Of a DNA stretch of 12,974 nucleotides, positions 2,644-12,974 are shown one piece after another (positions within the stretch are counted from its first letter, which is position 1; every line of letters begins with the position of its first letter). The translations under genes and the position numbers were made by a program. The DNA comes from a virus (Duplodnaviria; Heunggongvirae; Uroviricota; Caudoviricetes). The notes under the pieces are model-generated. The model was not told where the DNA came from. It did no database searches and worked only from the letters and a program-made list of their open reading frames with translations. Location of the stretch: the IMG/VR virus record IMGVR_UViG_2648501669_000022, positions 1 through 12,974 of that record; one strand, written 5' to 3'.

Positions 2644-3444
2644 ATGAAACTGCGAAAAACGCCCGTACAGGGGCAGGGCTTCGTTCGGCCTGAAAACCAG
2701 AATCTGCAAAATTTCGGCGAAATTATCCCGATTATTTCCGGCGTTATTGGCGGGAGTGAAACCACTATTGTTAGCGCCAGAGCGTTACATAAGGCGTTAG
2801 GTGTAGGGCGCGTTTTCCGTTCGTGGATCAAGGGGCGCATTGAAGAATACGGGTTCACGGAAGGCGTGGATTATGAGGTTGTTGAATATTTGAGCCGACC
2901 CGATCCGGTGAGCGCAAAATCTCGCCAGCAAACCGCTCTTGAGTACATCATCACAGTGAACATGGCGAAAGAACTGGCGATGGTCGAACGTACCGAACAG
3001 GGCCGCGCCGTTCGCCAGTACTTTATCAAATGCGAGGAGGAGCTACACAAGGTAGCGCCAGTGCGTTCCGCAGCGTTACGCCGGGAACTGAAAGCCCGTA
3101 TCACCGTTGCCAGCTACTTTAAGCCAATGTGTGCCGCGCTGGAGGCGTACCGGGCTGAACTGGGTAAAAACACGTTCCAGCACCACTACACCACGGAAGC
3201 CAATATGCTGGCGCGTATCGTGCTGGGTGGCATGACTGCAAAACAGTGGGCGCAGGCGAACGGCATCACAGGCGAACCACGCGACCACATGAGCACGTTG
3301 CAGCTTGAGCACCTTTCTTACCTTGAGCAGAGCAATATCACGCTGATTGAGTTAGGCCAGGGCTACCACCAGCGGAAAGCTGAATTAATTCGTCTTTCGC
3401 AGCGTTGGTTAGCCCGTCGCATGGAGGAAAACAGCCATGTGTAA
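2644..3444 (+). CDS. AntA/AntB-type antirepressor-like protein (N-terminal domain), C-terminal domain unknown
   Basis: 266 aa; N-terminal segment SARALHKALGVGRVFRSWIKGRIEEYGFTEGVDYEV resembles the AntA/AntB N-terminal domain as I remember it. AGGAG 5 nt upstream of the ATG. Confidence 0.6.
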   Translation: MKLRKTPVQGQGFVRPENQNLQNFGEIIPIISGVIGGSETTIVSARALHKALGVGRVFRSWIKGRIEEYGFTEGVDYEVVEYLSRPDPVSAKSRQQTALEYIITVNMAKELAMVERTEQGRAVRQYFIKCEEELHKVAPVRSAALRRELKARITVASYFKPMCAALEAYRAELGKNTFQHHYTTEANMLARIVLGGMTAKQWAQANGITGEPRDHMSTLQLEHLSYLEQSNITLIELGQGYHQRKAELIRLSQRWLARRMEENSHV

Positions 3445-3750
3445 CGCTCTGACCGTTACAAAAAGAAAAAGCGCCCCGTTGCCGGAGCGCCTTTGTGAAC
3501 GAATAGCCTACTGCGCCATATTGCTTACTGTCTACGAGGCAGATTATAGCGTTGTGGTCGCACAGAGTGAAGGCGCAGATCACCGTTACTACAGCACACC
3601 AGAAATGCAGAATATTTTGCTGCAAAATGTCGTTGGCCACGCTGTCCGGAAAGCAAAAAATTTTGCTGGTGGCGTGACTGATACGATTTTTTCTGGTTGC
3701 TCGGTGCTGATCAACTTAACCTGGACTTATGTACAACATTGCAACTATTC

Positions 3751-3897
3751 CTACTTTAAGCTGAATGTAACTTTACCTATATCATTAGAGGTATGGTCGC
3801 GCTTGACCTCAATTTCACCATTTTGTAGCCCTGCTACAAAAAAATATAAAAGTGTCAATGTTGCTGCAATCAGTAACCATTTTCCAAAAATATACAT
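3751..3897 (-). CDS. Small membrane peptide (48 aa), not in the ORF track
   Basis: Translated by hand from the minus strand: MYIFGKWLLIAATLTLLYFFVAGLQNGEIEVKRDHTSNDIGKVTFSLK. One predicted TM helix at the N-terminus. Starts 21 nt downstream of the Arc-like stop on the same strand; AT-rich; weak SD-like AAGGG upstream. Confidence 0.35.
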   Translation of the reverse strand: MYIFGKWLLIAATLTLLYFFVAGLQNGEIEVKRDHTSNDIGKVTFSLK

Positions 3898-3918
3898 TCT
3901 TGATTTTACCCTTAATCG

Positions 3919-4092
3919 TCAACCTTTTGGCACGATGCCTCGCTGTTGTAATTCTTTGCGGAGCACTCGTTTAATCCAGGTAGCTAATGAGGTGTCGCCG
4001 TCTGCTTTGGCTGCCTCCTCAAGTTGTGCCCTAAATTCTTCTGGTAGCCGCATTTGGTATGGTGGCGATCGTTTTTCTAATGGTGTTGACAT
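3919..4092 (-). CDS. Arc/MetJ-type ribbon-helix-helix DNA-binding protein (57 aa), not in the ORF track
   Basis: Translated by hand from the minus strand: MSTPLEKRSPPYQMRLPEEFRAQLEEAAKADGDTSLATWIKRVLRKELQQRGIVPKG. Beta-strand-like PYQMRLP followed by two helices is the Arc/Mnt pattern. The start codon is embedded in a palindromic operator. Confidence 0.65.
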   Translation of the reverse strand: MSTPLEKRSPPYQMRLPEEFRAQLEEAAKADGDTSLATWIKRVLRKELQQRGIVPKG

Positions 4093-4144
4093 GGTAATTA
4101 CCCATAATTACTATAGTTACACGGTAATTACCATTGTACTTACC
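4093..4144. promoter_or_regulatory. Divergent promoter/operator region: perfect 10-bp palindrome GGTAATTACC x2 plus a degenerate third site
   Basis: GGTAATTACC at 4093-4102 (abutting the Arc-like start codon) and 4123-4132, 30 bp centre to centre; degenerate copy GTACTTACC at 4136-4144; TATAGT-like -10 for the minus strand at 4111-4116. Confidence 0.55.
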
Positions 4145-4228
4145 ATTGCAAAAAAAACAACGCCCCGGACTGCGGGAACAGTACCAGGGCGTCTAACCAC
4201 CAACGATAGCGAAAGTATCGAGGTAGCT

Positions 4229-4432
4229 ATGATAAATCATACCACACACCCGCAAGGGCGGGACTCGCACAACCTGAATAAATACATCTGGCGTTTTATC
4301 GCCCTGAGCACGGCACAACCGCGCGTAATTCACATCGAGGCCACCAGCGAACAGGAAGCACGCCAGCAATCTCCTGATGGCTGCGTGATGGTATTCGCCG
4401 CCCGTATTCGCCAGGAGGTGCACCATGCATAA
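4229..4432 (+). CDS. Hypothetical protein (67 aa), first gene of the replication operon
   Basis: This is only the 3' part of the 331-aa track ORF (3437-4432). ATG at 4229 with GAGGT 4 nt upstream; the upstream 800 nt of that ORF overlaps the Arc-like gene and the intergenic region and translates to low-complexity sequence. Stop overlaps the next start. Confidence 0.5.
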   Translation: MINHTTHPQGRDSHNLNKYIWRFIALSTAQPRVIHIEATSEQEARQQSPDGCVMVFAARIRQEVHHA

Positions 4433-4987: not shown

Positions 4988-5278
4988 ATGAAAAAGAAAA
5001 ATTCTGGCTTTACTGCCAGCGGCCCCGCTCGGCCTGAAATCAGACACGGAGATATTTACCGCGACACCAGACGTGGGGGACGAGTGGTTATTCGTCACGT
5101 TACGCCAGGCAATATCACCTACCGCCGTGAGGCTTACGAATATGACTGCGTAATGCCGCGCCGTCAGTTTGAGCGTGATTTTATTCTGGTGGAAAACAAA
5201 CAACAGGCGGTGGCAAGACGTGCAGCCACGAATATTAAAAAAATCCGGGCAATGTTGGTTGCGGGAGGTAAGAAGTGA
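4988..5278 (+). CDS. Hypothetical basic protein (96 aa)
   Basis: ORF with AGGAAAA upstream; stop overlaps the GTG start of the helicase gene. No family recognised with confidence. Confidence 0.5.
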   Translation: MKKKNSGFTASGPARPEIRHGDIYRDTRRGGRVVIRHVTPGNITYRREAYEYDCVMPRRQFERDFILVENKQQAVARRAATNIKKIRAMLVAGGKK

Positions 5279-6687
5279 AAAACGCACCGAATTTGAAATA
5301 TCAGCCGAAGGATAAATTCACTGAGGTAATCATTTTTGCCGGGACGGACGCTTACTCCCATGCTCAACACTGGATTGAAAGCGAAGGACGGAAACACGGC
5401 GATAATGTGCCACCTGTTTACCTGGGGCCAAAGCAACTGGCAGACCTGGCGAATATCCGCATTATTGACGAGAAACGCCGCTTTGCACGTGTCTATCTCG
5501 CGGGGGAGATCGAACCAATCCAGATCAATGCTATCGCTGAAAAGCTGGCGCTGGCTGGCGTACAGGAGGCGAAATTATACAAAGGTATCACCGACCGGGA
5601 GCCGGAGAACTGGCGCGACTACCTGCAACGGATCCGCGAACAGGCAGAGCGCGAAGAAATGCTTACTGACGAGCAATACAGCCAGCGAAAAACCACACTA
5701 CCAATGAGTATTGGATCTGCAGGGTACGACACACAGCTTGATTATGTCGTTAAGGGCGTGATTCCGGCTAATTCATTGTGCAGCACATACGGCGCGAGCG
5801 GTTCCTATAAATCGTTCCTCGCGTGTTCCTGGGCGTGTCATGTTGCCACGGGTCGCCACTGGGGAGGCCGCAGGGTGGCGCATGGTTCGGTGATGTATGT
5901 CGTCGGTGAAGGTGGCATTGGTGTCCCTCGTCGTATCAAAGCATGGGAAATCGTTAATGATGAACGGGTGAAAAATCTGTACCTGGTAAACCGCCCGATT
6001 TTTCCGGCGGTCCCGCTTGATGTTGATGAAATGGTCATCGCTTCCCGTCAGGTTGAACGGGAAACGGGTAAACCGGTACGCATGATTATTCTGGATACGC
6101 TGGCGCGTTGCTTTGGCGGTAATGATGAAAATGACGCGCGGGATATGGGGGCGTTTATCCGTGGATGTGACGAACTGAAACGACGCACGGGGGCCACGGT
6201 ACTGGTGGTTCACCATTCCGGCAAGGATGAAACAAAAGGGGCGCGTGGTTCCAGTGCATTTCGTGCATCTCTGGACGCTGAATACCGTATTCGCCGTGAA
6301 GGTGCGGACAGTGAAGCCCTGGTTATCTCCTGCACCAAAATGAAGGACGCGGAGGAACTGAAAGAGGCTGCATATGATTTACGCGTGGTGGAGCTTTTTA
6401 CCGACACTGACGGGGAGTTAATCACGTCGCTGGTGGTTGTGGATAAGCCGCGCCCACCTGTTGAACTGGAACGCATCGAGGAGGCCGGGAACAAGACGGA
6501 AAATCACGCTGCGCTATGGCAGTGCATCAGAACGCGAACAGCACACGGGGAGGCGTGCACTATCGCCCTTCTCCGCGATGATATGAAAAAGCTGGGGTAT
6601 GAAATGAAAAACTTCCGGCGCTGGCTGTACAAGCTGGAAAGCGACGGCGTAATCGCTATTGACGGTGATTATGTGCGCCCACTGTAA
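5275..6687 (+). CDS. RepA/DnaB-like RecA-fold replicative helicase (the family I remember as AAA_25), probable replication initiator of the island
   Basis: 470 aa; GTG start with GGGAGGT 5 nt upstream. Walker A-like GASGSYKS, Walker B-like ILDTLARCF, and VLVVHHSGK motif typical of RepA-type helicases. Its stop abuts the iteron array. Confidence 0.8.
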   Translation: MKNAPNLKYQPKDKFTEVIIFAGTDAYSHAQHWIESEGRKHGDNVPPVYLGPKQLADLANIRIIDEKRRFARVYLAGEIEPIQINAIAEKLALAGVQEAKLYKGITDREPENWRDYLQRIREQAEREEMLTDEQYSQRKTTLPMSIGSAGYDTQLDYVVKGVIPANSLCSTYGASGSYKSFLACSWACHVATGRHWGGRRVAHGSVMYVVGEGGIGVPRRIKAWEIVNDERVKNLYLVNRPIFPAVPLDVDEMVIASRQVERETGKPVRMIILDTLARCFGGNDENDARDMGAFIRGCDELKRRTGATVLVVHHSGKDETKGARGSSAFRASLDAEYRIRREGADSEALVISCTKMKDAEELKEAAYDLRVVELFTDTDGELITSLVVVDKPRPPVELERIEEAGNKTENHAALWQCIRTRTAHGEACTIALLRDDMKKLGYEMKNFRRWLYKLESDGVIAIDGDYVRPL

Positions 6688-7075
6688 AAAGTGAGGAGCA
6701 AAAGTGAGGATGGCGGGTAATTTAACAAAAAATCAACGCCACTCCTCACTTTCTCACCTGTATATAGGTCAAAAAGTGAGGAATGAAAAACATATTGTAA
6801 AACAAGACATTACAACAACAAGAAAAACAGGTGAGGAGCAGGACGGGAATAACAAAAAGTGAGGAACAAAAGTGAGGAATGGTGAGTTAATAGAAATGAG
6901 GTAATAAAAATAACAGGTAGGTTAAAAAACACACCATGCAAGATATTAACTAAAACTTAACTATTTACCTCACTTTTGCGTATATATAAGGATTAAAAAG
7001 TGAGTACTTAAAAATACATTTAAAATCATATTGTTATTAACTTCATAAATTTTCACTGTGCAGCAGGTGAGGAAT
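6688..7075. repeat. Putative origin of replication: AT-rich iteron array, core GTGAGGA
   Basis: Direct copies of GTGAGGA at 6691, 6704, 6776, 6831, 6859, 6872 and 7067; inverted copies at 6743-6749 (TCCTCAC) and 6967-6973 (ACCTCAC); variants GTGAGTT (6882) and GTGAGTA (7010). Most are preceded by an A-run; the region is strongly AT-rich. Confidence 0.7.
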
Positions 7076-7153
7076 TAAAAAATTAGGAATGTTAAAAATG
7101 AAAACAGAATGTTGTGTCAGTGCCGTTGGGCAACGTAGCAATCAGTAAAAACG

Positions 7154-7696
7154 ATGGGGCAAAGCATGACTAAGCTGACCATTAACAGAAAACCTAAAGG
7201 CATTTACGGCACGCCGCAGAAAACGACGCAGGCGGCGCAGGAGCAGGATAAAACCACGTCGGCGCATAAAGTGATGCCCGGTAACCAGAAAGCGCAGCAG
7301 AAGCCCACAGGGGCGACACCGTGGCGGCATATGACCAAGCGCCAGCGCAAAAACCGCAGGCGCGTTAACCGCCTTATCGAACTGTGGCCAGAATTATTCA
7401 GCCGGGAAGCACCGAAGCCGCTTAAGGTGGGGATATTTGACGACCTGATGCAGGATCTCGCCGTCAGGGGGCTGGCATTCGGGCCAGGGGCATTACGTGC
7501 GACGCTGGCATCTTATGCGCAGTGTCCGCGCTATTACCGCGCCTTAATGGCTGGTGGGGTACGCTACGACCTGAAAGGCCAGCCGTGCGGCGAGGTGACA
7601 CCACAGGAACAACAGGACGCAGAAACGCGGCTGGTGGCGCTGAATGAGAAGCGCAAACGTCAGCGCCGGGCAGCAAAGGAGAAAACAGGCGCATGA
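7154..7696 (+). CDS. ProQ/FinO-domain RNA-binding protein with a basic N-terminal extension
   Basis: 180 aa; LIELWPELFSREAPKPLKVGIFDDL...RYDLKGQPCGEVTPQE parallels the ProQ N-terminal/FinO signature as I remember it (PLKIGIF.DL ... R.DLDG.PCGEL). The first ~70 aa are Lys/Arg/Gln-rich. Exact start uncertain (ATG 7154 or 7166). Confidence 0.7.
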   Translation: MGQSMTKLTINRKPKGIYGTPQKTTQAAQEQDKTTSAHKVMPGNQKAQQKPTGATPWRHMTKRQRKNRRRVNRLIELWPELFSREAPKPLKVGIFDDLMQDLAVRGLAFGPGALRATLASYAQCPRYYRALMAGGVRYDLKGQPCGEVTPQEQQDAETRLVALNEKRKRQRRAAKEKTGA

Positions 7697-7980
7697 TTCA
7701 CGACAGCAAAGCGGAAGCACTGGAAGCGCGTGGTCTGTACCGGAGAGCGGCGGCGCGGTGGGCTGAGGTCATCATGCTGGCGAATGATGACAAGGCACGG
7801 GAACAGGCGGCAAAACGTCGCGCGGAATGTATCCGCAAGGCAGCACGCCCACCAGCAAGGCAGGATAATTTCGGGGAGATGCGCGAAACCATCAGCCGGG
7901 CACATGCCGGGATGGGATTACATCAGCCCAATGGTAAGGCATTCAGGAAATACCCTGGATCGAAAAATTGCAGTCAGTGA
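7693..7980 (+). CDS. PerC-family transcriptional activator-like protein
   Basis: 95 aa; N-terminus MIHDSKAEALEARGLYRRAAARWAEVIM fits the PerC/Pch pattern (E..G.WRRAA.RW) from memory. ATGA overlap with the upstream stop; followed by tandem terminators. Confidence 0.6.
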   Translation: MIHDSKAEALEARGLYRRAAARWAEVIMLANDDKAREQAAKRRAECIRKAARPPARQDNFGEMRETISRAHAGMGLHQPNGKAFRKYPGSKNCSQ

Positions 7981-8355: not shown

Positions 8356-8394
8356 TGGTCGTGATTTTTTGGTGAAAAAAGAGAGGTGATAAAA

Positions 8395-8973
8395 ATGCCA
8401 GCAAGCAAAGAAGATTTGCGATTAAAACTGATGGAGGTGGTTAACGCTCTGTCAGAGTCGCAGGGCAGCACTCCGCAGGAGATTATCGAAATTCTGAATG
8501 CGATCCCCGCACAGGATTTCATAAAAGAGGATAACGCTAATCAAAACATCGTCGCGTCAGTCGAAGATGAATCCTCACTGGCAGAAGCCCAGGCTAAAGC
8601 AGATTCCGCATACAGCAATATGGGCCGTCGCGCTCCAGCCCCGTTTGCTGGTGAAAAGTCGATGGATTACCGCAAGCGTGCATTAATTGGTGCACAGAAG
8701 CTGGCTAAAAAATTCAGTGATGTGGATATTCGTTCCGTTTCAGATTCTGCAACGCTGGCGGTGCTGGAAGATCAGATTTACCAGGCTGCAAAAGACAGTG
8801 TTCAGTGGGCCGTGGAAAACACGCCGGGCCATTTGGGTAAAACCGTAAGAATGGATGAAGCTGGTCGTCGTATTACTGAATATCAGGGCGATCCGAACGT
8901 CTGGCTGAACGCCTTCAAAATCCCTCCCCGTCGCCTGGTCAAAATTAACACTGCAAGCCTCGCGGGGGCATGA
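8395..8973 (+). CDS. Hypothetical protein (192 aa), acidic helical N-terminal half
   Basis: ATG at 8395 with GAGAGGTG 6 nt upstream (the track's 8386 start is a GTG inside the SD). No family recognised. Confidence 0.6.
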   Translation: MPASKEDLRLKLMEVVNALSESQGSTPQEIIEILNAIPAQDFIKEDNANQNIVASVEDESSLAEAQAKADSAYSNMGRRAPAPFAGEKSMDYRKRALIGAQKLAKKFSDVDIRSVSDSATLAVLEDQIYQAAKDSVQWAVENTPGHLGKTVRMDEAGRRITEYQGDPNVWLNAFKIPPRRLVKINTASLAGA

Positions 8974-8990
8974 AAAACGTGCTGAGTTCA

Positions 8991-9021
8991 GCCCTGCCGG
9001 ATTTGGCGGGGCTTATTGCTT
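8991..9021 (+). promoter_or_regulatory. Intergenic stem-loop with U-rich tail (weak terminator or attenuator)
   Basis: Stem GCCCTGCC (8991-8998) / GGCGGGGC (9005-9012) with one G-U wobble, loop GGATTT, then TTATTGCTT. Confidence 0.35.
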
Positions 9022-9037
9022 ATAACCGGATAACATT

Positions 9038-9709
9038 ATGCTTTTAACAGAAATTGAGGCGGCAAAGCAGATTCGGGACGGTCAGCTACCGTCGCCTTAT
9101 CAGTTTTCCAACATGTGGCTGGTTAACCTGCGTATTACAGGAACCGGTATGGCCTACCGCGCCGAAGAAAAAGAATTTGTCTGGCGTTCACCGCAAACTT
9201 ATCTCAATCCGCAGTTCCTGGAACGTTGCGCCGGAGTACCCGTCATTATCGACCATCCCGAAGGCAAAACCATTGAAGACGTTGGCGAACGGTCGCGCAT
9301 TATTGGCACCGTCATGTTGCCGTATATTCGCGGTGACGAGGTGTGGGGTGTATGCCGGATTTACGGGCAGGAAATCATCGATTACATCCAGAAAGCACGG
9401 GGGGAGGTATCCACCAGCCCGTCGGTTGTGTTTTGTGGTGCGTCCGGTGGGGCAGAAGTTCCTGATGTAATGGGCGAGGACAATTTTTTCATTGAGGGTA
9501 CGCCATTCCTTATCGATCACGTTGCGCTCGTGCCGCTTGGTGTTTGGGATAAGGGCGGGAAACCATCGGGTGTGGAGGTAACAACGCCGACAGCAGAAGA
9601 ACAGCTCGCCGGAATGGTCCGGGACGTTATTGATGCGGCCTGCAAGCCAGCCCTGGAAAAACTGGAAGAAATATCCGGGCGGCTGGCTCAACTGGAAAAA
9701 ACAGAGTGA
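9038..9709 (+). CDS. Hypothetical protein (223 aa); weak resemblance to HK97-type prohead proteases
   Basis: Size and a His (VPVIIDHPEG, residue 73) to Ser (GEVSTSP, residue 125) spacing of about 52 aa recall HK97-family prohead proteases; this is memory of motif shape only. C-terminus is coiled-coil-like. Confidence 0.55.
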   Translation: MLLTEIEAAKQIRDGQLPSPYQFSNMWLVNLRITGTGMAYRAEEKEFVWRSPQTYLNPQFLERCAGVPVIIDHPEGKTIEDVGERSRIIGTVMLPYIRGDEVWGVCRIYGQEIIDYIQKARGEVSTSPSVVFCGASGGAEVPDVMGEDNFFIEGTPFLIDHVALVPLGVWDKGGKPSGVEVTTPTAEEQLAGMVRDVIDAACKPALEKLEEISGRLAQLEKTE

Positions 9710-9716
9710 GTGAATC

Positions 9717-10334
9717 ATGAAAATTGCTAAAAACTTAAATCTGATTATCCCTGTGCGCACTGAAAAGGGAAATGGCTGGATCCATGCCACGCCGATCAGC
9801 AAAGAGGTGTTTAAAGAGCATTTCTTCATCCTGAGTAAAACCTTTTCTGCCATTTTTTCTGAAGGTCTTGGTGTTGTTGCGGGTCCGCGCGTTGCCTGCC
9901 TTATGCTGGAGAAAATCTCCCGTGACTCCGGTTTATGGGATGGGGAGAAAGGCATACGTAATACGCTCATAAACGAAATTATTCGCCTGGCAAACCTTGT
10001 TTATCCAGTGGAGGGCAAAGGCTACGACACAATCCCTCTCGATATGGCGCTGGAGCGTGAAATCGTTGATTTGGACGAAGTGGCGGGTGAACTTGTTTTT
10101 TTTACATGCGTCTCGTCGATAAATTCCCCGGAGCAGACGAAGGGGACTATGGATGCGGTGAATGGAATATGGAGCACTCAATGCTCGTCCTTGAGTCTTA
10201 CGGAATGGATCGCTTCATTGCCGACATTGAAGCCTGCCGTCAGTTCTGGCGCGACGGCGAACACGTCATCAGCGACATCCTCGACTACTCAGCCGGAGCC
10301 GGATTCAGAGACATCTGTGCAGATTCCGGTCTGA
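9717..10334 (+). CDS. Hypothetical protein; zero-frame ORF convincing only to about 10105, possible tail-assembly-chaperone-like gene
   Basis: GAGTGAG 6 nt upstream of the ATG. The first ~129 codons look protein-like; after the T8 run the zero frame becomes Ser/Thr-rich low complexity and loses the G-rich first codon position, which the -1 frame shows instead. Confidence 0.5.
   Translation: MKIAKNLNLIIPVRTEKGNGWIHATPISKEVFKEHFFILSKTFSAIFSEGLGVVAGPRVACLMLEKISRDSGLWDGEKGIRNTLINEIIRLANLVYPVEGKGYDTIPLDMALEREIVDLDEVAGELVFFTCVSSINSPEQTKGTMDAVNGIWSTQCSSLSLTEWIASLPTLKPAVSSGATANTSSATSSTTQPEPDSETSVQIPV
10097..10103 (+). other. Candidate -1 slippery heptamer T_TTT_TTT within a T8 run (10096-10103)
   Basis: Zero-frame codons are GTT TTT TTT. 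The -1 frame has a stop at 10088-10090, opens at 10091 and runs to 10399. Confidence 0.4.
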
Positions 10335-10399
10335 ATGTAAAAACAGCAGCTCAGTTTCGTGAGCTGCTCAAATTCAAGAATCCCGCAGGAGTATTGTAA
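10106..10399 (+). CDS. -1 frame ORF (97 codons from the ATG), likely translated as a frameshift extension of the upstream gene or as its own product
   Basis: Better codon-position bias than the overlapping zero frame; its stop overlaps the next start (TAATG at 10397-10401), indicating translational coupling to the 680-aa gene. Confidence 0.5.
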   Translation: MRLVDKFPGADEGDYGCGEWNMEHSMLVLESYGMDRFIADIEACRQFWRDGEHVISDILDYSAGAGFRDICADSGLNVKTAAQFRELLKFKNPAGVL

Positions 10400-12441
10400 T
10401 GTCAGGTAATCAGATGCCAGTTCTGACGCTGGACGTTAATGAAGAACACCTCAAACGGCTTGAGGCAATTTTTGAAAAGTATCGCAACGGGCTGATGATC
10501 GGCCCTGCAGGAACGCCGATGAAAATACCGGGGCAAAGTGGGCGCAGCGTGGGGGCAGGCTTACCCGTGGCGGCAAAATCTGGTCGGACAGGACCGGATG
10601 TATCCGGGAGAGTGAGGGACGAAAAAGGGCGCTTTGTCGGCAGTGGAAAAACAGCAGATTCGTTCGTAAGCAACTATAAAGGTCGCGGCGAAACGATGTT
10701 TGATAAGTATCTCAGCGGGCTGGGGAAAAATGCCCAACAGACGCTGAAAACTTACAAGCAGATCAATTCTACGCTACAGACGACCACTTCGAGATTAAAC
10801 AACCTGTTTAAAACAACCGTATCGTGGGGGACAAAACTTGCGGTTATGGGCGTTGCCGGGCCGTTTGGCTTTGGCATGATGTCTCGTAGTGTTGTAGAGA
10901 AACAGAAAAATGCAGATGAGCTGGTGGCAACGCCGGGAGAATTAAAGGCGGCAGAGAGTACCTATTCACCTTATTTTTCCGGTGTTGGCAATGTGCTCAA
11001 TACACTGGCAGCCGCGCAAAATGATCAAGAACACCCCGCCCGCGTTGGCCTGCTTCATCTGGGGATTAATCCTGATAAAAACGCGACTGAAAACCTGCCT
11101 GTATTCCTGAAAAAGGTTGCAGAGCTGGCAAAGGAATATCAGGGAAGTGGTCTTACCCAGAGTATGCTCAGGGGAAGAGGGCTTGGATGGGTAAATTTTG
11201 GTCTTACTAACCAGTTAGTCAAATATCAGGACAAAATACCTGAACTCAACAAAGAGTTTTCGTTACGTGCAGCGCAGAATGATTCGTTACTGACCTCTGC
11301 ACATACAAGTAAATATCAGAATCTTACCAGTAACCTGGAAAAAAACTGGGATCGGCTTACCAGCGGATTTCAGGGAGCAATGGCGGGGAATGAAGACGCT
11401 TTAATCAGAATGTCTGATGGTACCACGAATGCTGCCCTGAATTTCATGAATGGTGAGAACTTTAAAAGGATTCTGACTGATGTTGAAACGGGGCTGGATA
11501 AACTTGGTAAGTACGTTAATGGCCCGGATTTTAATAACGACCTGAACAATTTTGCCGAAAACGTTGCAAAGGTCACCAAGGCACTTAGCGGATTTGTTGG
11601 TTTTGCCGTTGAACATCCCTGGCTTTTTGGGGCCGCAGTGCTTGCGGGGCCATCAAGAGTTGGTGCCGTGGCAGCCACAACAACCGGAGTTGCCGCTCGT
11701 GTTGTCGGTGGAAGTCTTCTTGGGGCTACAGCCGGAACAGTAGCAGGATTGGCTATTCCTACAAATAACACACCTACCACCAGTGAGGAAATGAAAGGGC
11801 TGGAGGGGCGTTTCAACTTTGATTATTTTAACGAAGTGCAGGAGTGGCAAAAAAACAATCCGGGTAAGGTCTGGCCTGGAGGATTGCAGGGATTTTCAAA
11901 TCAAGTAAACAGATCTGCATATTTATCCAGAGGGATCAGGAATAACAATCCCGGAAATCTTAATTTCGCAGGACAAAAAGGGGCTACCCTGGAATCGGGG
12001 CCAAATGCCCGTTTTGCCAGCTTCCCGACGATGCTGGAAGGCATTGCTGCCTTAGATCGGCAGGTAATGCTATACCTGAAACGCGGCAAAAATACGATTG
12101 ATCAGATCATTGATATTTATGCCCCTTCATCTGATGGAAATAACACATCGTCCTATAAAAGCTATCTCTCTCAGTACACCGGTTTAGGTGTTAAGGAGAA
12201 AATTGATGGTTCTAATTTTGAGGTCATGAAAAAGCTAATTCAGGGCATTATTAACCATGAAAATGGTGCTGCCGCTAAAGCTGTAAGTGTTGAAGATGTG
12301 ATCCGGGCGCTGGCTATGAATCGTGGGATTGTCCCTACAGCAGGAAATAATAATCAGAACGTTAAGCTTGATATTCTTCAAAAACCAGGCTCCGACATAG
12401 TCGCTCAACTGGCCGGATTTTCGGGGCTTATGCCGAGGTAA
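10399..12441 (+). CDS. Large tape-measure-like protein (680 aa) with Gly/Ala-rich hydrophobic segments and a C-terminal NNPGN-motif domain
   Basis: AGGAG 7 nt upstream of the ATG. Central segment AVEHPWLFGAAVLAGPSRVGAVAATTTGVAARVVGGSLLGATAGTVAGLAIP; N/T/S/K-rich helical regions; C-terminal RGIRNNNPGNLNF...IYAPSSDGNN. The gene itself is well supported; the function is a guess. Confidence 0.7.
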   Translation: MSGNQMPVLTLDVNEEHLKRLEAIFEKYRNGLMIGPAGTPMKIPGQSGRSVGAGLPVAAKSGRTGPDVSGRVRDEKGRFVGSGKTADSFVSNYKGRGETMFDKYLSGLGKNAQQTLKTYKQINSTLQTTTSRLNNLFKTTVSWGTKLAVMGVAGPFGFGMMSRSVVEKQKNADELVATPGELKAAESTYSPYFSGVGNVLNTLAAAQNDQEHPARVGLLHLGINPDKNATENLPVFLKKVAELAKEYQGSGLTQSMLRGRGLGWVNFGLTNQLVKYQDKIPELNKEFSLRAAQNDSLLTSAHTSKYQNLTSNLEKNWDRLTSGFQGAMAGNEDALIRMSDGTTNAALNFMNGENFKRILTDVETGLDKLGKYVNGPDFNNDLNNFAENVAKVTKALSGFVGFAVEHPWLFGAAVLAGPSRVGAVAATTTGVAARVVGGSLLGATAGTVAGLAIPTNNTPTTSEEMKGLEGRFNFDYFNEVQEWQKNNPGKVWPGGLQGFSNQVNRSAYLSRGIRNNNPGNLNFAGQKGATLESGPNARFASFPTMLEGIAALDRQVMLYLKRGKNTIDQIIDIYAPSSDGNNTSSYKSYLSQYTGLGVKEKIDGSNFEVMKKLIQGIINHENGAAAKAVSVEDVIRALAMNRGIVPTAGNNNQNVKLDILQKPGSDIVAQLAGFSGLMPR

Positions 12442-12446
12442 TACCC

Positions 12447-12974
12447 ATGCTAATGAGTAAAGCAGAATATGCTAAACACAAAGGCGTAAGCCGCCAGACA
12501 GTTTACGACTGGATCGAGAAAGGCGAAGTGGTCATGTCCGGTAAAAAAATCGATGTGGAAGCGACAGAGCAGCGGAACAGCCCACCAGCACAGGAAAAAG
12601 ACACAGTTTCTGAAATGTGGCCAGAGAGAACGCTGGAAATGACGTGGGGCGAGTTCTGGAAAGCAGTTAAGGCCAGAGACGGTAAAATCCCTGCACCAGT
12701 AACGGACGATGACATACAGCAGCGTGTGCAGGATGCAGCCGGGGAATTAGGCTGGGAAGTGCACTTTCTTGATGATGGTGCTATCTGCCTTGAGGATGAT
12801 GAAGGGCAGCATTACTTTGAAAAATACAATTTGCGAGGTAATGCCAGGCTGGCAATTCGTATGCTGCGTTGCGAACTCTGCTATGTTGCAGGTGATTATC
12901 CCGATGAACTGGAATCATGGAGTGAAGCCGGGCTAAACGCCCTGGCTGAATGGGAAAAATCAGGCCATCAATGA
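12447..12974 (+). CDS. HTH protein (175 aa) with a Nu1-like small-terminase N-terminal signature; candidate TerS or packaging-redirection factor
   Basis: GAGGT 7 nt upstream of the ATG. N-terminus SKAEYAKHKGVSRQTVYDWIEKGEVVMSGKKIDVEA parallels lambda Nu1 (KKQLADIFGASIRTIQNWQEQGMPVLRGGGKGNEVLYDSAA) from memory. Acidic C-terminal half. Stop TGA is the last codon of the window. Confidence 0.45.
   Translation: MLMSKAEYAKHKGVSRQTVYDWIEKGEVVMSGKKIDVEATEQRNSPPAQEKDTVSEMWPERTLEMTWGEFWKAVKARDGKIPAPVTDDDIQQRVQDAAGELGWEVHFLDDGAICLEDDEGQHYFEKYNLRGNARLAIRMLRCELCYVAGDYPDELESWSEAGLNALAEWEKSGHQ

What the first reader, a model, noticed from the sequence alone, without database searches (positions are those of the whole stretch)
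12447..12974. Nu1-like HTH protein directly after the tape-measure-like gene: candidate small terminase or packaging hijacker
The N-terminal ~40 aa align by eye with the DNA-binding HTH of lambda Nu1 small terminase, while the acidic C-terminal half is unrelated. On E. coli PICIs a factor of this kind redirects helper packaging to the island cos site. Its position after a tail-like gene rather than at the head of a packaging module is atypical gene order.
Basis: partly seen in the sequence, partly recalled or inferred. Interest (0 to 1): 0.5.

Follow-up and report, generated by a model that had tools for sequence, protein, structure and literature searches.

The report
Satellite DNA-binding protein in the Rpp slot
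This real gene sits near the end of a phage-parasitising island and encodes an uncharacterised DNA-binding protein that always travels with its own array of short DNA repeats and sits where related islands keep their packaging-hijack gene, so it is probably a new way for such islands to get packed into a helper phage's particles.

Summary
The ORF at 12447-12974 (175 aa) is real and conserved in 114 protein clusters, all from Enterobacterales and all unnamed.

**What was confirmed**
- The fold equally resembles Xis, Cox, BldC and RppC.
- The acidic C-terminal alpha/beta domain (pI 4.5) matches nothing known.
- It is not a member of the Nu1 or Rpp families.

**Context**
- The window is a PICI-type satellite with int, alpA, a replicase, perC and borrowed morphogenesis genes.
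- The gene is the penultimate gene, the position rppA holds in EcCICFT073. It is followed by a homolog of the small ORF that follows rppA.
- Being next to the tape-measure gene is incidental, because the upstream neighbour differs between elements.

**New finding**
- Just past the window end, every homolog examined in five genera is flanked by 3-7 copies of aAAAGTGT(C/A)AA.
- This array is distinct from the replicase iterons and independent of integrase type.
- A second subfamily keeps the same HTH and array but has a different C-terminal domain.

**Best reading (about 0.45):** a satellite DNA-marking adaptor that directs helper terminase to the satellite. It would work like Rpp or a SaPI TerS but has a different build. 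A role as a transcription regulator is the main rival.

The parts
12435..12438 (+). GAGG ribosome-binding site, 8 nt before the ATG. It overlaps the end of the tape-measure gene, whose stop is at 12439-12441.
   Evidence: Read directly from the sequence. The 5-nt gap to the upstream gene implies co-transcription with the morphogenesis-like operon.
12447..12974 (+). The gene: a 175-aa two-domain protein that is a core gene of a PICI-type satellite family.
   Evidence: ORF and translation. 114 homolog clusters, all Enterobacterales and all 'hypothetical'. Present in 189 of 5426 complete E. coli genomes.
12447..12578 (+). Residues 1-44: winged helix-turn-helix DNA-binding domain of the Nu1/Rpp/Xis/MerR class.
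12579..12626 (+). Residues 45-60: disordered, variable linker.
   Evidence: pLDDT is below 50 for residues 46-55. Mean identity is 17% and length is variable.
12627..12971 (+). Residues 61-175: acidic alpha/beta domain specific to this family. Proposed partner-binding domain.
10399..12441 (+). Context: tape-measure protein with an SLT transglycosylase domain, borrowed from a Rac-like myophage lineage.
   Evidence: 70% identity to pPE4 gp56. phrog_7694, and the aa 466-630 stretch matches phrog_2276 tape measure.
9717..10399 (+). Context: tail assembly chaperone (9717-10334) with a -1 frameshift extension. The slippery T_TTT_TTT is at 10097-10103 and the -1 frame is open from 10091 to 10399.
   Evidence: 86% identity to pPE4 gp55, which sits directly before its tape-measure gene. 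Heptamer and frame analysis.
3849..3858 (+). The only copy of the array motif AAAGTGTCAA inside the window. It is isolated, in non-coding DNA between antA and the Icd-like gene, and may be chance.
   Evidence: 1 match at up to 1 mismatch, 1.17 expected at that stringency. The same site is present in L001 and L003. The main array lies just beyond the window end, at what would be window positions about 12981-13236 if the source matches L003 (L003 17133-17388).

Best explanation
The gene encodes the DNA-recognition, packaging-specificity factor of a family of PICI-type phage satellites.

**Proposed mechanism**
1. The nearly invariant N-terminal winged HTH binds the array of aAAAGTGT(C/A)AA repeats beside the gene. 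This marks replicated satellite DNA.
2. The acidic C-terminal domain contacts a component of the helper phage's packaging machinery, either TerS or TerL.
3. The helper terminase then starts packaging on satellite DNA.

This is the job Rpp does for lambda-type cos PICIs and that SaPI TerS does for pac SaPIs. The likely helpers are Rac/Pam3-like myophages with a Terminase_2 small subunit and a Terminase_6N large subunit, which are probably headful packagers.

**Shown**
- The gene, its fold and its conservation.
- Its fixed position in the rpp slot.
- Strict co-occurrence with the repeat array.
- Independence of the array from the replicase and the integrase.

**Inferred**
- That the protein binds the array.
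- That the C-terminal domain binds a helper protein.
- That the outcome is packaging.
For: **Position.** The element shares EcCICFT073's architecture, and the gene replaces rppA as the penultimate gene. It is followed by a homolog of the small ORF that follows rppA, which shares the N-terminal TEAxxLxxIRxxAGI and the C-terminal YxWxKPxRxRR.

**Mutual exclusivity.** None of 58 loci with this gene has an rppA or nu1 homolog or lambda cosN.

**TerS-like signature.**
- The best PHROG hit is the Nu1 small-terminase family, both for this protein (E 1.3e-7) and for the distant L069 homolog (E 2e-6 over 70 aa).
- No family search on any other ORF of the window that was scanned returned a terminase or Rpp family.

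**Cis array.**
- Six exact AAAGTGTCAA copies lie within 260 bp after the stop in E. coli, against 0.07 expected per 21 kb.
- The same motif occurs 3-7 times beside the homologs in Klebsiella, Enterobacter, Pantoea and two Serratia species.
- It is also present in all 37 IMG/VR loci that carry the gene.
- In E. coli the array is found in 166 genomes and the gene in 189.

**Modularity.** A second subfamily has the same HTH (44% identity, hhalign probability 97%) and the same array, but an unrelated C-terminal domain, in satellites with Mu-like tail genes. This fits a constant DNA-marking half joined to a helper-specific half.

**Core status.** In Serratia aquatilis the element is reduced to int, alpA, primase and this gene, plus cargo.

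**Site specificity.** The motif is absent from the candidate helper pPE4.

**Precedent.** Rpp is a winged-HTH protein that binds PICI DNA and helper TerS (PMC6739421).
Against: - No experiment exists, and no packaging cut site has been identified.
- No cos or pac sequence is shared with any phage record.
- The C-terminal domain looks like no TerS, Rpp or other packaging protein.
- The fold of the DNA-binding domain is equally that of excisionases and MerR/Cox-type regulators.
- The array lies downstream of the gene in the main family but upstream in the second subfamily, where it could simply be an operator.
- A GCCAKTACTGGC element inside the array region also occurs in the EcCICFT073 ori region.
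- The helper's identity and its headful mode are inferred only from homologous structural genes and Pfam classes.
Confidence: 0.45

Rival explanations
1. It is a transcription regulator of the satellite. The HTH binds the repeat array as an operator or enhancer to control its own gene, the downstream small ORF, or the 3' cargo and defence genes. The C-terminal domain would act as a sensor or oligomerisation domain.
For: The HTH_17/MerR/Cox/BldC-type fold is typical of regulators. In the second subfamily the array lies directly upstream of the gene, like an operator. In the main family the array precedes the small ORF or inserted defence genes such as the PARIS-like pair in O104:H4. Multi-site arrays are used by Cox-type and BldC-type regulators.
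Against: No sigma-70 promoter-like site lies within the array. The array stays with the gene even when the downstream gene is replaced or separated from it by 3.6 kb of cargo. Six or seven sites spread over 260 bp is more than an ordinary operator needs. The slot is the rpp/cos slot.
Confidence: 0.25
2. It is an iteron-binding protein of a second replication or maintenance function, such as an auxiliary origin or a partition-like centromere. The array would be the iterons.
For: The direct repeats have roughly 55-bp phasing. A GCCAKTACTGGC element is shared with the functional EcCICFT073 ori region. In S. aquatilis the gene follows the primase directly.
Against: Every element already has a canonical ori right after its replicase, with iterons that change with the replicase: AAAGTGAGGA in the window, TGAGGCAA in L012, GTGAACAG in L017 and GGTAGAYA in CFT073. 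The array motif stays constant across these. No ParA/ParM-type partner gene was seen among the gene annotations and family searches of the elements examined. The protein resembles no Rep or ParB/ParR family.
Confidence: 0.1
3. It is an excisionase, a recombination directionality factor of the Xis/Cox type, for the satellite integrase.
Against: The same gene plus array, about 97% identical in the flanking DNA, goes with at least three different integration sites: tRNA-Gly, abgR/smrA and tRNA-Thr. The array lies 680 bp to several kb from attR. An AlpA excision and activation gene sits next to int. The protein is 175 aa with an extra domain, whereas excisionases are single-domain proteins of 50-80 aa.
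Confidence: 0.05
4. It is a genuine member of a known packaging family: either a diverged lambda Nu1-type small terminase, or an Rpp homolog that heterodimerises with a lambda-type TerS.
Against: The match is confined to the HTH. There is no Phage_Nu1 Pfam hit. hhalign probability is only 18-24%. No PDB sequence hit appears even at E<=10. The predicted C-terminal domain is alpha/beta, not the helical coiled-coil of Rpp or the Nu1 assembly and gpA-binding region (PMC6739421). There is no lambda cosN and no TerL gene. The candidate helper's TerS belongs to the unrelated Terminase_2 family.
Confidence: 0.04

Closest known systems
RppA/RppC (redirecting phage packaging) of E. coli cos PICIs such as EcCICFT073; PDB 6HN7; PMC6739421
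   Different: No sequence homology beyond the HTH. The C-terminal domain is predicted alpha/beta and acidic rather than a three-helix coiled-coil dimeriser. The adjacent site is a 3-7-copy repeat array rather than cosQ-cosN plus a single R3-like site, and there is no lambda cosN. The likely helpers have a Terminase_2 TerS, so DBD mimicry of a Nu1-type TerS is unlikely.
Lambda gpNu1 small terminase (Pfam PF07471, phrog_57)
   Different: No self-assembly or gpA-binding regions, no neighbouring TerL gene, no cosN and no Pfam match.
SaPI-encoded small terminase (TerS-S) of pac-type staphylococcal islands (as summarised in PMC6092414)
   Same: A satellite-encoded protein that recognises a satellite-specific site and hands the DNA to the helper's large terminase. 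This is the functional analogy if the helper is a headful packager.
   Different: SaPI TerS is a true homolog of phage TerS. This protein is not homologous to the candidate helper's TerS (BLASTP E 5.8; Terminase_2 versus no family).
Excisionase/Cox/MerR-class winged-HTH proteins (Pukovnik Xis 4J2N, P2 Cox 4LHF, BldC 6AMK; Pfam HTH_17)
   Different: Those are single-domain proteins tied to an integrase and att site or to promoters. This protein has an extra 115-residue domain, is independent of integrase type, and lies far from att.

Membership tests
Lambda Nu1-type small terminase (PF07471 / phrog_57) | N-terminal winged HTH that aligns with Nu1 residues 1-40 | tested here: met
Lambda Nu1-type small terminase (PF07471 / phrog_57) | Full-length family match, including the self-assembly and large-subunit-binding regions | tested here: not met
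   No Phage_Nu1 hit at E<=0.1. hhalign aligns only 32 columns, probability 18.5%. The C-terminal half is an unrelated alpha/beta domain.
Lambda Nu1-type small terminase (PF07471 / phrog_57) | Gene adjacent to a large terminase gene and to cosN | tested here: not met
   No terminase family was found among the window ORFs scanned. No lambda or P2 cos in the window or L003.
Rpp (redirecting phage packaging) proteins | Sequence homology to RppA/B/C over the whole protein | tested here: not met
   Only 25 aa of HTH align with RppA. RppC in the PDB is not found by phmmer or a profile search at E<=10.
Rpp (redirecting phage packaging) proteins | Winged-HTH DNA-binding domain followed by a helical coiled-coil dimerisation domain | tested here: not met
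Rpp (redirecting phage packaging) proteins | Location in a PICI: late in the element, next to the satellite's packaging site and before the small conserved ORF | tested here: met
   Same slot as rppA in EcCICFT073, with a homologous downstream ORF. The adjacent site, however, is a repeat array and not a cos site.
Rpp (redirecting phage packaging) proteins | Binds the helper TerS and switches packaging specificity | not testable with these tools
   Needs two-hybrid or pull-down assays and transfer assays.
Excisionase / recombination directionality factor (HTH_17, TIGR01764) | Small single-domain winged-HTH protein scoring above the family cut-off | tested here: not met
   HTH_17 scores 20.2 bits against a cut-off of 27. 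TIGR01764 scores 17.3 against 28.8. The protein is 175 aa with a second domain.
Excisionase / recombination directionality factor (HTH_17, TIGR01764) | Co-variation with the integrase and binding sites inside the att arms | tested here: not met
   The same cassette occurs with three integration sites. The array lies 680 bp to more than 3 kb from attR. AlpA is present next to int.
PICI-type phage satellite (the element as a whole) | Integrase, AlpA, primase or helicase with an adjacent iteron ori, unidirectional genes, size about 10-15 kb, flanking att repeats, no full virion gene set | tested here: met
   The close relative in L003 measures 14.25 kb between 18-bp att repeats at a tRNA-Gly gene.

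The most novel reading that the evidence does not exclude
Gram-negative PICIs that parasitise headful-packaging myophages use a previously undescribed, modular packaging adaptor. One half is constant: a 45-residue Nu1-like HTH and its AAAGTGTMAA repeat array, which together act as a portable pac site. The other half is a swappable C-terminal domain that plugs into the terminase of whichever helper lineage the satellite exploits. In the same elements, helper-derived scaffold, tail-chaperone and even tape-measure genes are co-opted, so both head filling and tail assembly are rewired.
Probability: 0.3. Interest if true: 0.75.

Novelty: new variant of a known kind. Interest (0 to 1): 0.55.

Why it matters
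How Gram-negative PICIs are packaged is understood only for lambda-type cos helpers, through Rpp. This family is present in about 3.5% of complete E. coli genomes and in Klebsiella, Enterobacter, Serratia, Pantoea and others, and it has no Rpp, no TerS and no cos.

A self-contained protein-plus-site cassette would explain how these satellites, and the defence and virulence cargo inserted next to the cassette, are mobilised. It would also give a compact, portable packaging signal for engineering transducing particles. It offers a clean test case for modular evolution of hijacking, with a constant DNA-binding half and an exchangeable helper-binding half.

If the protein turns out to be only a regulator, the conserved array still defines a new regulatory node of these satellites.

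Tried and rejected
**Searches that found nothing**
- Lambda cosN (GGGCGGCGACCT) and the P2/P4 19-nt cos, with mismatches, in the window and in the complete relative L003: none.
- The 940 bp between the gene and attR against 50,697 phage records: no match. The helper-shared-cos approach of PMC10111431 therefore gave nothing.
- tblastn of the protein against phages: nothing below E=1.
- PADLOC: nothing.
- Rfam on the 3' region: nothing.
- Sigma-70 promoter scan of the array: no sites.
- Foldseek against BFVD and PDB: no hit at E<=0.001.
- Literature search by protein accession: no hits.

**Searches that were unavailable or uninformative**
- The afdb50 library was unavailable.
- A search with the 45-aa HTH alone returned only truncated copies of the same family and no fusions to terminase domains.
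- Two 49-kb fetches of CFT073 were wasted before EcCICFT073 was located.

**Ideas considered and rejected**
- The array is the replicase origin. Rejected because the ori iterons differ with each replicase while the array motif is constant.
- The protein mimics the helper TerS DNA-binding domain as Rpp does. Unlikely, because pPE4 TerS is a Terminase_2 protein with no similarity.
- The Tai tail-assembly-inhibition system (PMC11364771). Considered because of the tape-measure neighbour. [quoted passage not shown]

Full report
**Observation.**
The ORF at 12447-12974 (+) is 175 aa, starts at ATG and ends with the last codon of the window. A GAGG sits 8 nt upstream, and the preceding gene stops 5 nt before the ATG. 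Homologs form 114 protein clusters at 35-94% identity. All are from Enterobacterales (Escherichia, Citrobacter, Klebsiella, Raoultella, Enterobacter, Serratia, Rouxiella, Pantoea, Yersinia, Cedecea), essentially all are full length, and nearly all carry no informative name. The gene is in 189 of 5426 complete E. coli genomes. It is therefore a real, conserved gene.

**The protein.**
AlphaFold2 with a 38-sequence alignment gives a confident model (mean pLDDT 89.7) with three parts.
- Residues 1-44 form a compact winged helix-turn-helix.
- Residues 45-60 form a disordered linker.
- Residues 61-170 form an alpha/beta domain.

The N-terminal domain is basic (pI 8.1) and 80% identical on average across the family, with S15 R16 Q17 Y20 K34 I35 D36 invariant. 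The linker is 17% identical. The C-terminal domain is acidic (pI 4.5) and 44% identical.

**Similarity to Nu1.**
- BLASTP gives 34% identity over residues 1-32, in register.
- The best PHROG is phrog_57 (E 1.3e-7, residues 1-42). I verified this is the Nu1 family, since Nu1 scores 1e-76 against it.

The similarity is class-wide rather than specific.
- Pfam gives only a sub-threshold HTH_17 hit and no Phage_Nu1 hit.
- NCBIfam gives nothing above cut-off.
- Sequence searches of the PDB find neither Nu1 nor Rpp.

**What the window is.**
The window is a PICI-type phage satellite with these genes, in order:
- P4-type integrase (1-1215)
- AlpA (2369-2566)
- AntA
- an Icd-like region
- DUF4222
- an AAA_25 helicase (5275-6687), followed by an iteron origin
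- ProQ/FinO
- PerC
- a block of morphogenesis-like genes
- the target gene

A 97%-identical relative in ETEC4077 is bounded by 18-bp att repeats at a tRNA-Gly gene and measures 14.25 kb.

The morphogenesis block is borrowed from Rac-like myophages (pPE4, Rac-SA53):
- the two halves of a DUF2213 scaffold/protease-like protein
- the tail assembly chaperone, 86% identical, with a T_TTT_TTT -1 frameshift site
- the tape-measure protein, 70% identical

So 'tape-measure-like' is correct.

**Position.**
EcCICFT073, the PICI in which Rpp was discovered (PMC6739421), has the same architecture. It runs int, alpA, Icd-like, DUF4222, primase, PerC, capsid and decoration homologs, a hypothetical gene, cos1, rppA (144 aa), an inverted cos2, a 93-aa ORF, then attR. 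In the relatives of the window, the target gene is likewise the penultimate gene. The 59-aa ORF after it is a homolog of that 93-aa ORF, sharing both its N-terminal and C-terminal motifs. The target therefore occupies the rppA slot.

What lies upstream is variable:
- the tape-measure gene here
- a 380-aa plus 107-aa module in O104:H4 and EC5
- a baseplate module in Klebsiella and Serratia
- a KAP NTPase in Enterobacter
- the primase itself in Serratia aquatilis, where the element is reduced to int, alpA, primase and this gene, plus cargo

The 'atypical order' is thus an accident of module swapping around a fixed core gene. None of 58 loci carrying the gene has an rppA or nu1 homolog or a lambda cosN.

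**The repeat array.**
The main new finding lies just beyond the window end.
- In ETEC4077 the 294-bp spacer after the stop codon holds six exact copies of AAAGTGTCAA, five direct and one inverted. The expectation is 0.07 in the whole 21-kb locus.
- The same motif, consensus aAAAGTGT(C/A)AA(G/C)(T/C), occurs in 3-7 copies directly beside the homologs in Klebsiella, Enterobacter, Pantoea and Serratia liquefaciens.
- It is also beside the homolog in S. aquatilis, where a cargo block has been inserted between the first copy and the other six.
- In E. coli the array is found in 166 genomes and the gene in 189.
- A pattern scan of IMG/VR returned 80 loci. All 37 that encode the protein have at least 4 copies within 400 bp.
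- Three further loci encode a second subfamily. It has the same 45-residue HTH (44% identity, hhalign probability 97%) and an unrelated C-terminal domain, and here the same array lies immediately upstream of the gene. One of these is in a primase-bearing satellite with Mu-like tail genes.

**What the array is not.**
- It is not the replicase origin. Each element has a separate iteron origin after its replicase, and its repeat changes with the replicase: AAAGTGAGGA in the window, TGAGGCAA in Enterobacter, GTGAACAG in S. aquatilis and GGTAGAYA in CFT073. The array motif is constant.
- It is not an att arm. The same cassette occurs with three integration sites and lies 0.7 to more than 3 kb from attR.
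- It contains no promoter-like hexamer pairs and no Rfam RNA.
- It is absent from the candidate helper pPE4.

A near-invariant DNA-binding domain paired with an invariant motif across genera and across two C-domain subfamilies makes it very likely that the protein binds this array. That remains an inference; I put it at about 0.8.

**Helper.**
The borrowed genes point to Rac/Pam3/E217-like myophages. pPE4 has a Terminase_2 small subunit and a Terminase_6N large subunit. From general knowledge of these families, this class usually packages by the headful mechanism. The element has no lambda or P2 cos. Its 3' region shares no DNA with any phage record. At 14.25 kb it is about 30% of pPE4's 47.5 kb, and this ratio, like the scaffold homologs, fits small-capsid redirection (inference). 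The Klebsiella copies abut E217-like tail genes and a truncated capsid gene. That is the helper-embedded configuration described in PMC10111431.

**Mechanism proposed.**
The HTH coats the repeat array on replicated satellite DNA. The acidic C-terminal domain, which differs between subfamilies that carry different helper-type tail genes, recruits or re-targets the helper terminase. Packaging then starts on the satellite. This works like Rpp (PMC6739421; PMC9026076) or like a SaPI TerS (PMC6092414), but the protein belongs to neither family.

I give this 0.45. The rivals are:
- transcription regulator using the array as an operator (0.25)
- auxiliary replication or maintenance function (0.10)
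- excisionase (0.05)
- true Nu1 or Rpp membership (0.04)

**Novelty.**
I found no paper describing this family, by topic or by accession. If the packaging reading is right, this is a new variant of a known kind of satellite strategy. The conserved protein-plus-array cassette is a new, testable observation in any case.

Noticed in passing
window 8386-12441: The satellite carries its own copies of a Rac-like myophage's scaffold/protease-like protein, tail assembly chaperone and tape-measure protein. The scaffold/protease-like gene is split in two with the halves in swapped order (8386-8973 is the C-part, 9038-9709 is the DUF2213 N-part). I found no description of a satellite with its own tape measure and chaperone in the papers searched.
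   Followed up: partly
window 10091-10399 (slippery site 10097-10103): A canonical T_TTT_TTT -1 frameshift site lies in the chaperone gene. The -1 frame opens at 10091 and stops at 10397-10399, overlapping the tape-measure ATG at 10399, which is the G/GT arrangement. pPE4 conserves both frames.
   Followed up: partly
window 6690-7100: Origin-like region after the AAA_25 helicase gene. It has about ten copies of AAAGTGAGGA or its complement flanking an AT-rich stretch. The iteron sequence differs in relatives with other replicases.
   Followed up: partly
window 3437-4432, especially 3919-4092 (-): The 331-aa ORF on the + strand is probably spurious. The stretch holds a 57-aa ribbon-helix-helix-like ORF on the minus strand, at the place where relatives have a YlcI/YnfO-family gene, facing the Icd/replicase operon. 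It may be the satellite's repressor.
   Followed up: no
L003 17127-17420, L012 10780-11200, L021 (outside the window): Interleaved with the AAAGTGTCAA copies is a second repeat, (A)TGYTAAG-N3-TGYTAAGGTTTTT. The array is therefore built of composite units of about 55 bp and may bind a second factor.
   Followed up: partly
L003 17212-17224; L019; L017; L008 24190-24205: A near-palindrome GCCA(T/G)TACTGGC lies inside the array region in E. coli, Pantoea and Serratia, and also in the functional ori region of EcCICFT073. Its meaning is unknown.
   Followed up: no
L026, L069 (8670-9251, -), L099 (587-1201, -): A second subfamily has the same HTH and the same repeat array (upstream of the gene) but an unrelated C-terminal domain. 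In L099 it again follows an SLT-domain tape-measure-like gene, in a satellite with a Mu GpP-like baseplate hub.
   Followed up: partly
L009-L011 (Klebsiella): The satellites carrying the gene sit directly against E217/Pam3-like tail genes and a truncated major capsid gene. This looks like the helper-embedded PICI configuration. They also carry duplicates of the helper's baseplate genes.
   Followed up: partly
L015 13614-15570 (E. coli O104:H4 2011C-3493); L017 9157-12054: Defence-like cargo is inserted right after, or inside, the repeat array: an AAA ATPase plus DUF4435 pair that looks like PARIS, and an SMEK_N/MC6/DUF2326 block. The array therefore borders the 3' cargo hotspot of these satellites.
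   Followed up: no
L003 17421-17600; L008 28374-28655; L010 10864-11052: A small conserved ORF has the N-terminal motif TEAxxLxxIRxxAGI and ends in YxW(R/K)KPxRxRR. It follows both rppA and the target gene in different PICIs. Its function is unknown.
   Followed up: partly
window 7154-7980: ProQ/FinO-domain and PerC-family genes are translationally coupled upstream of the morphogenesis block. EcCICFT073 has an SSB and PerC at the same place.
   Followed up: no
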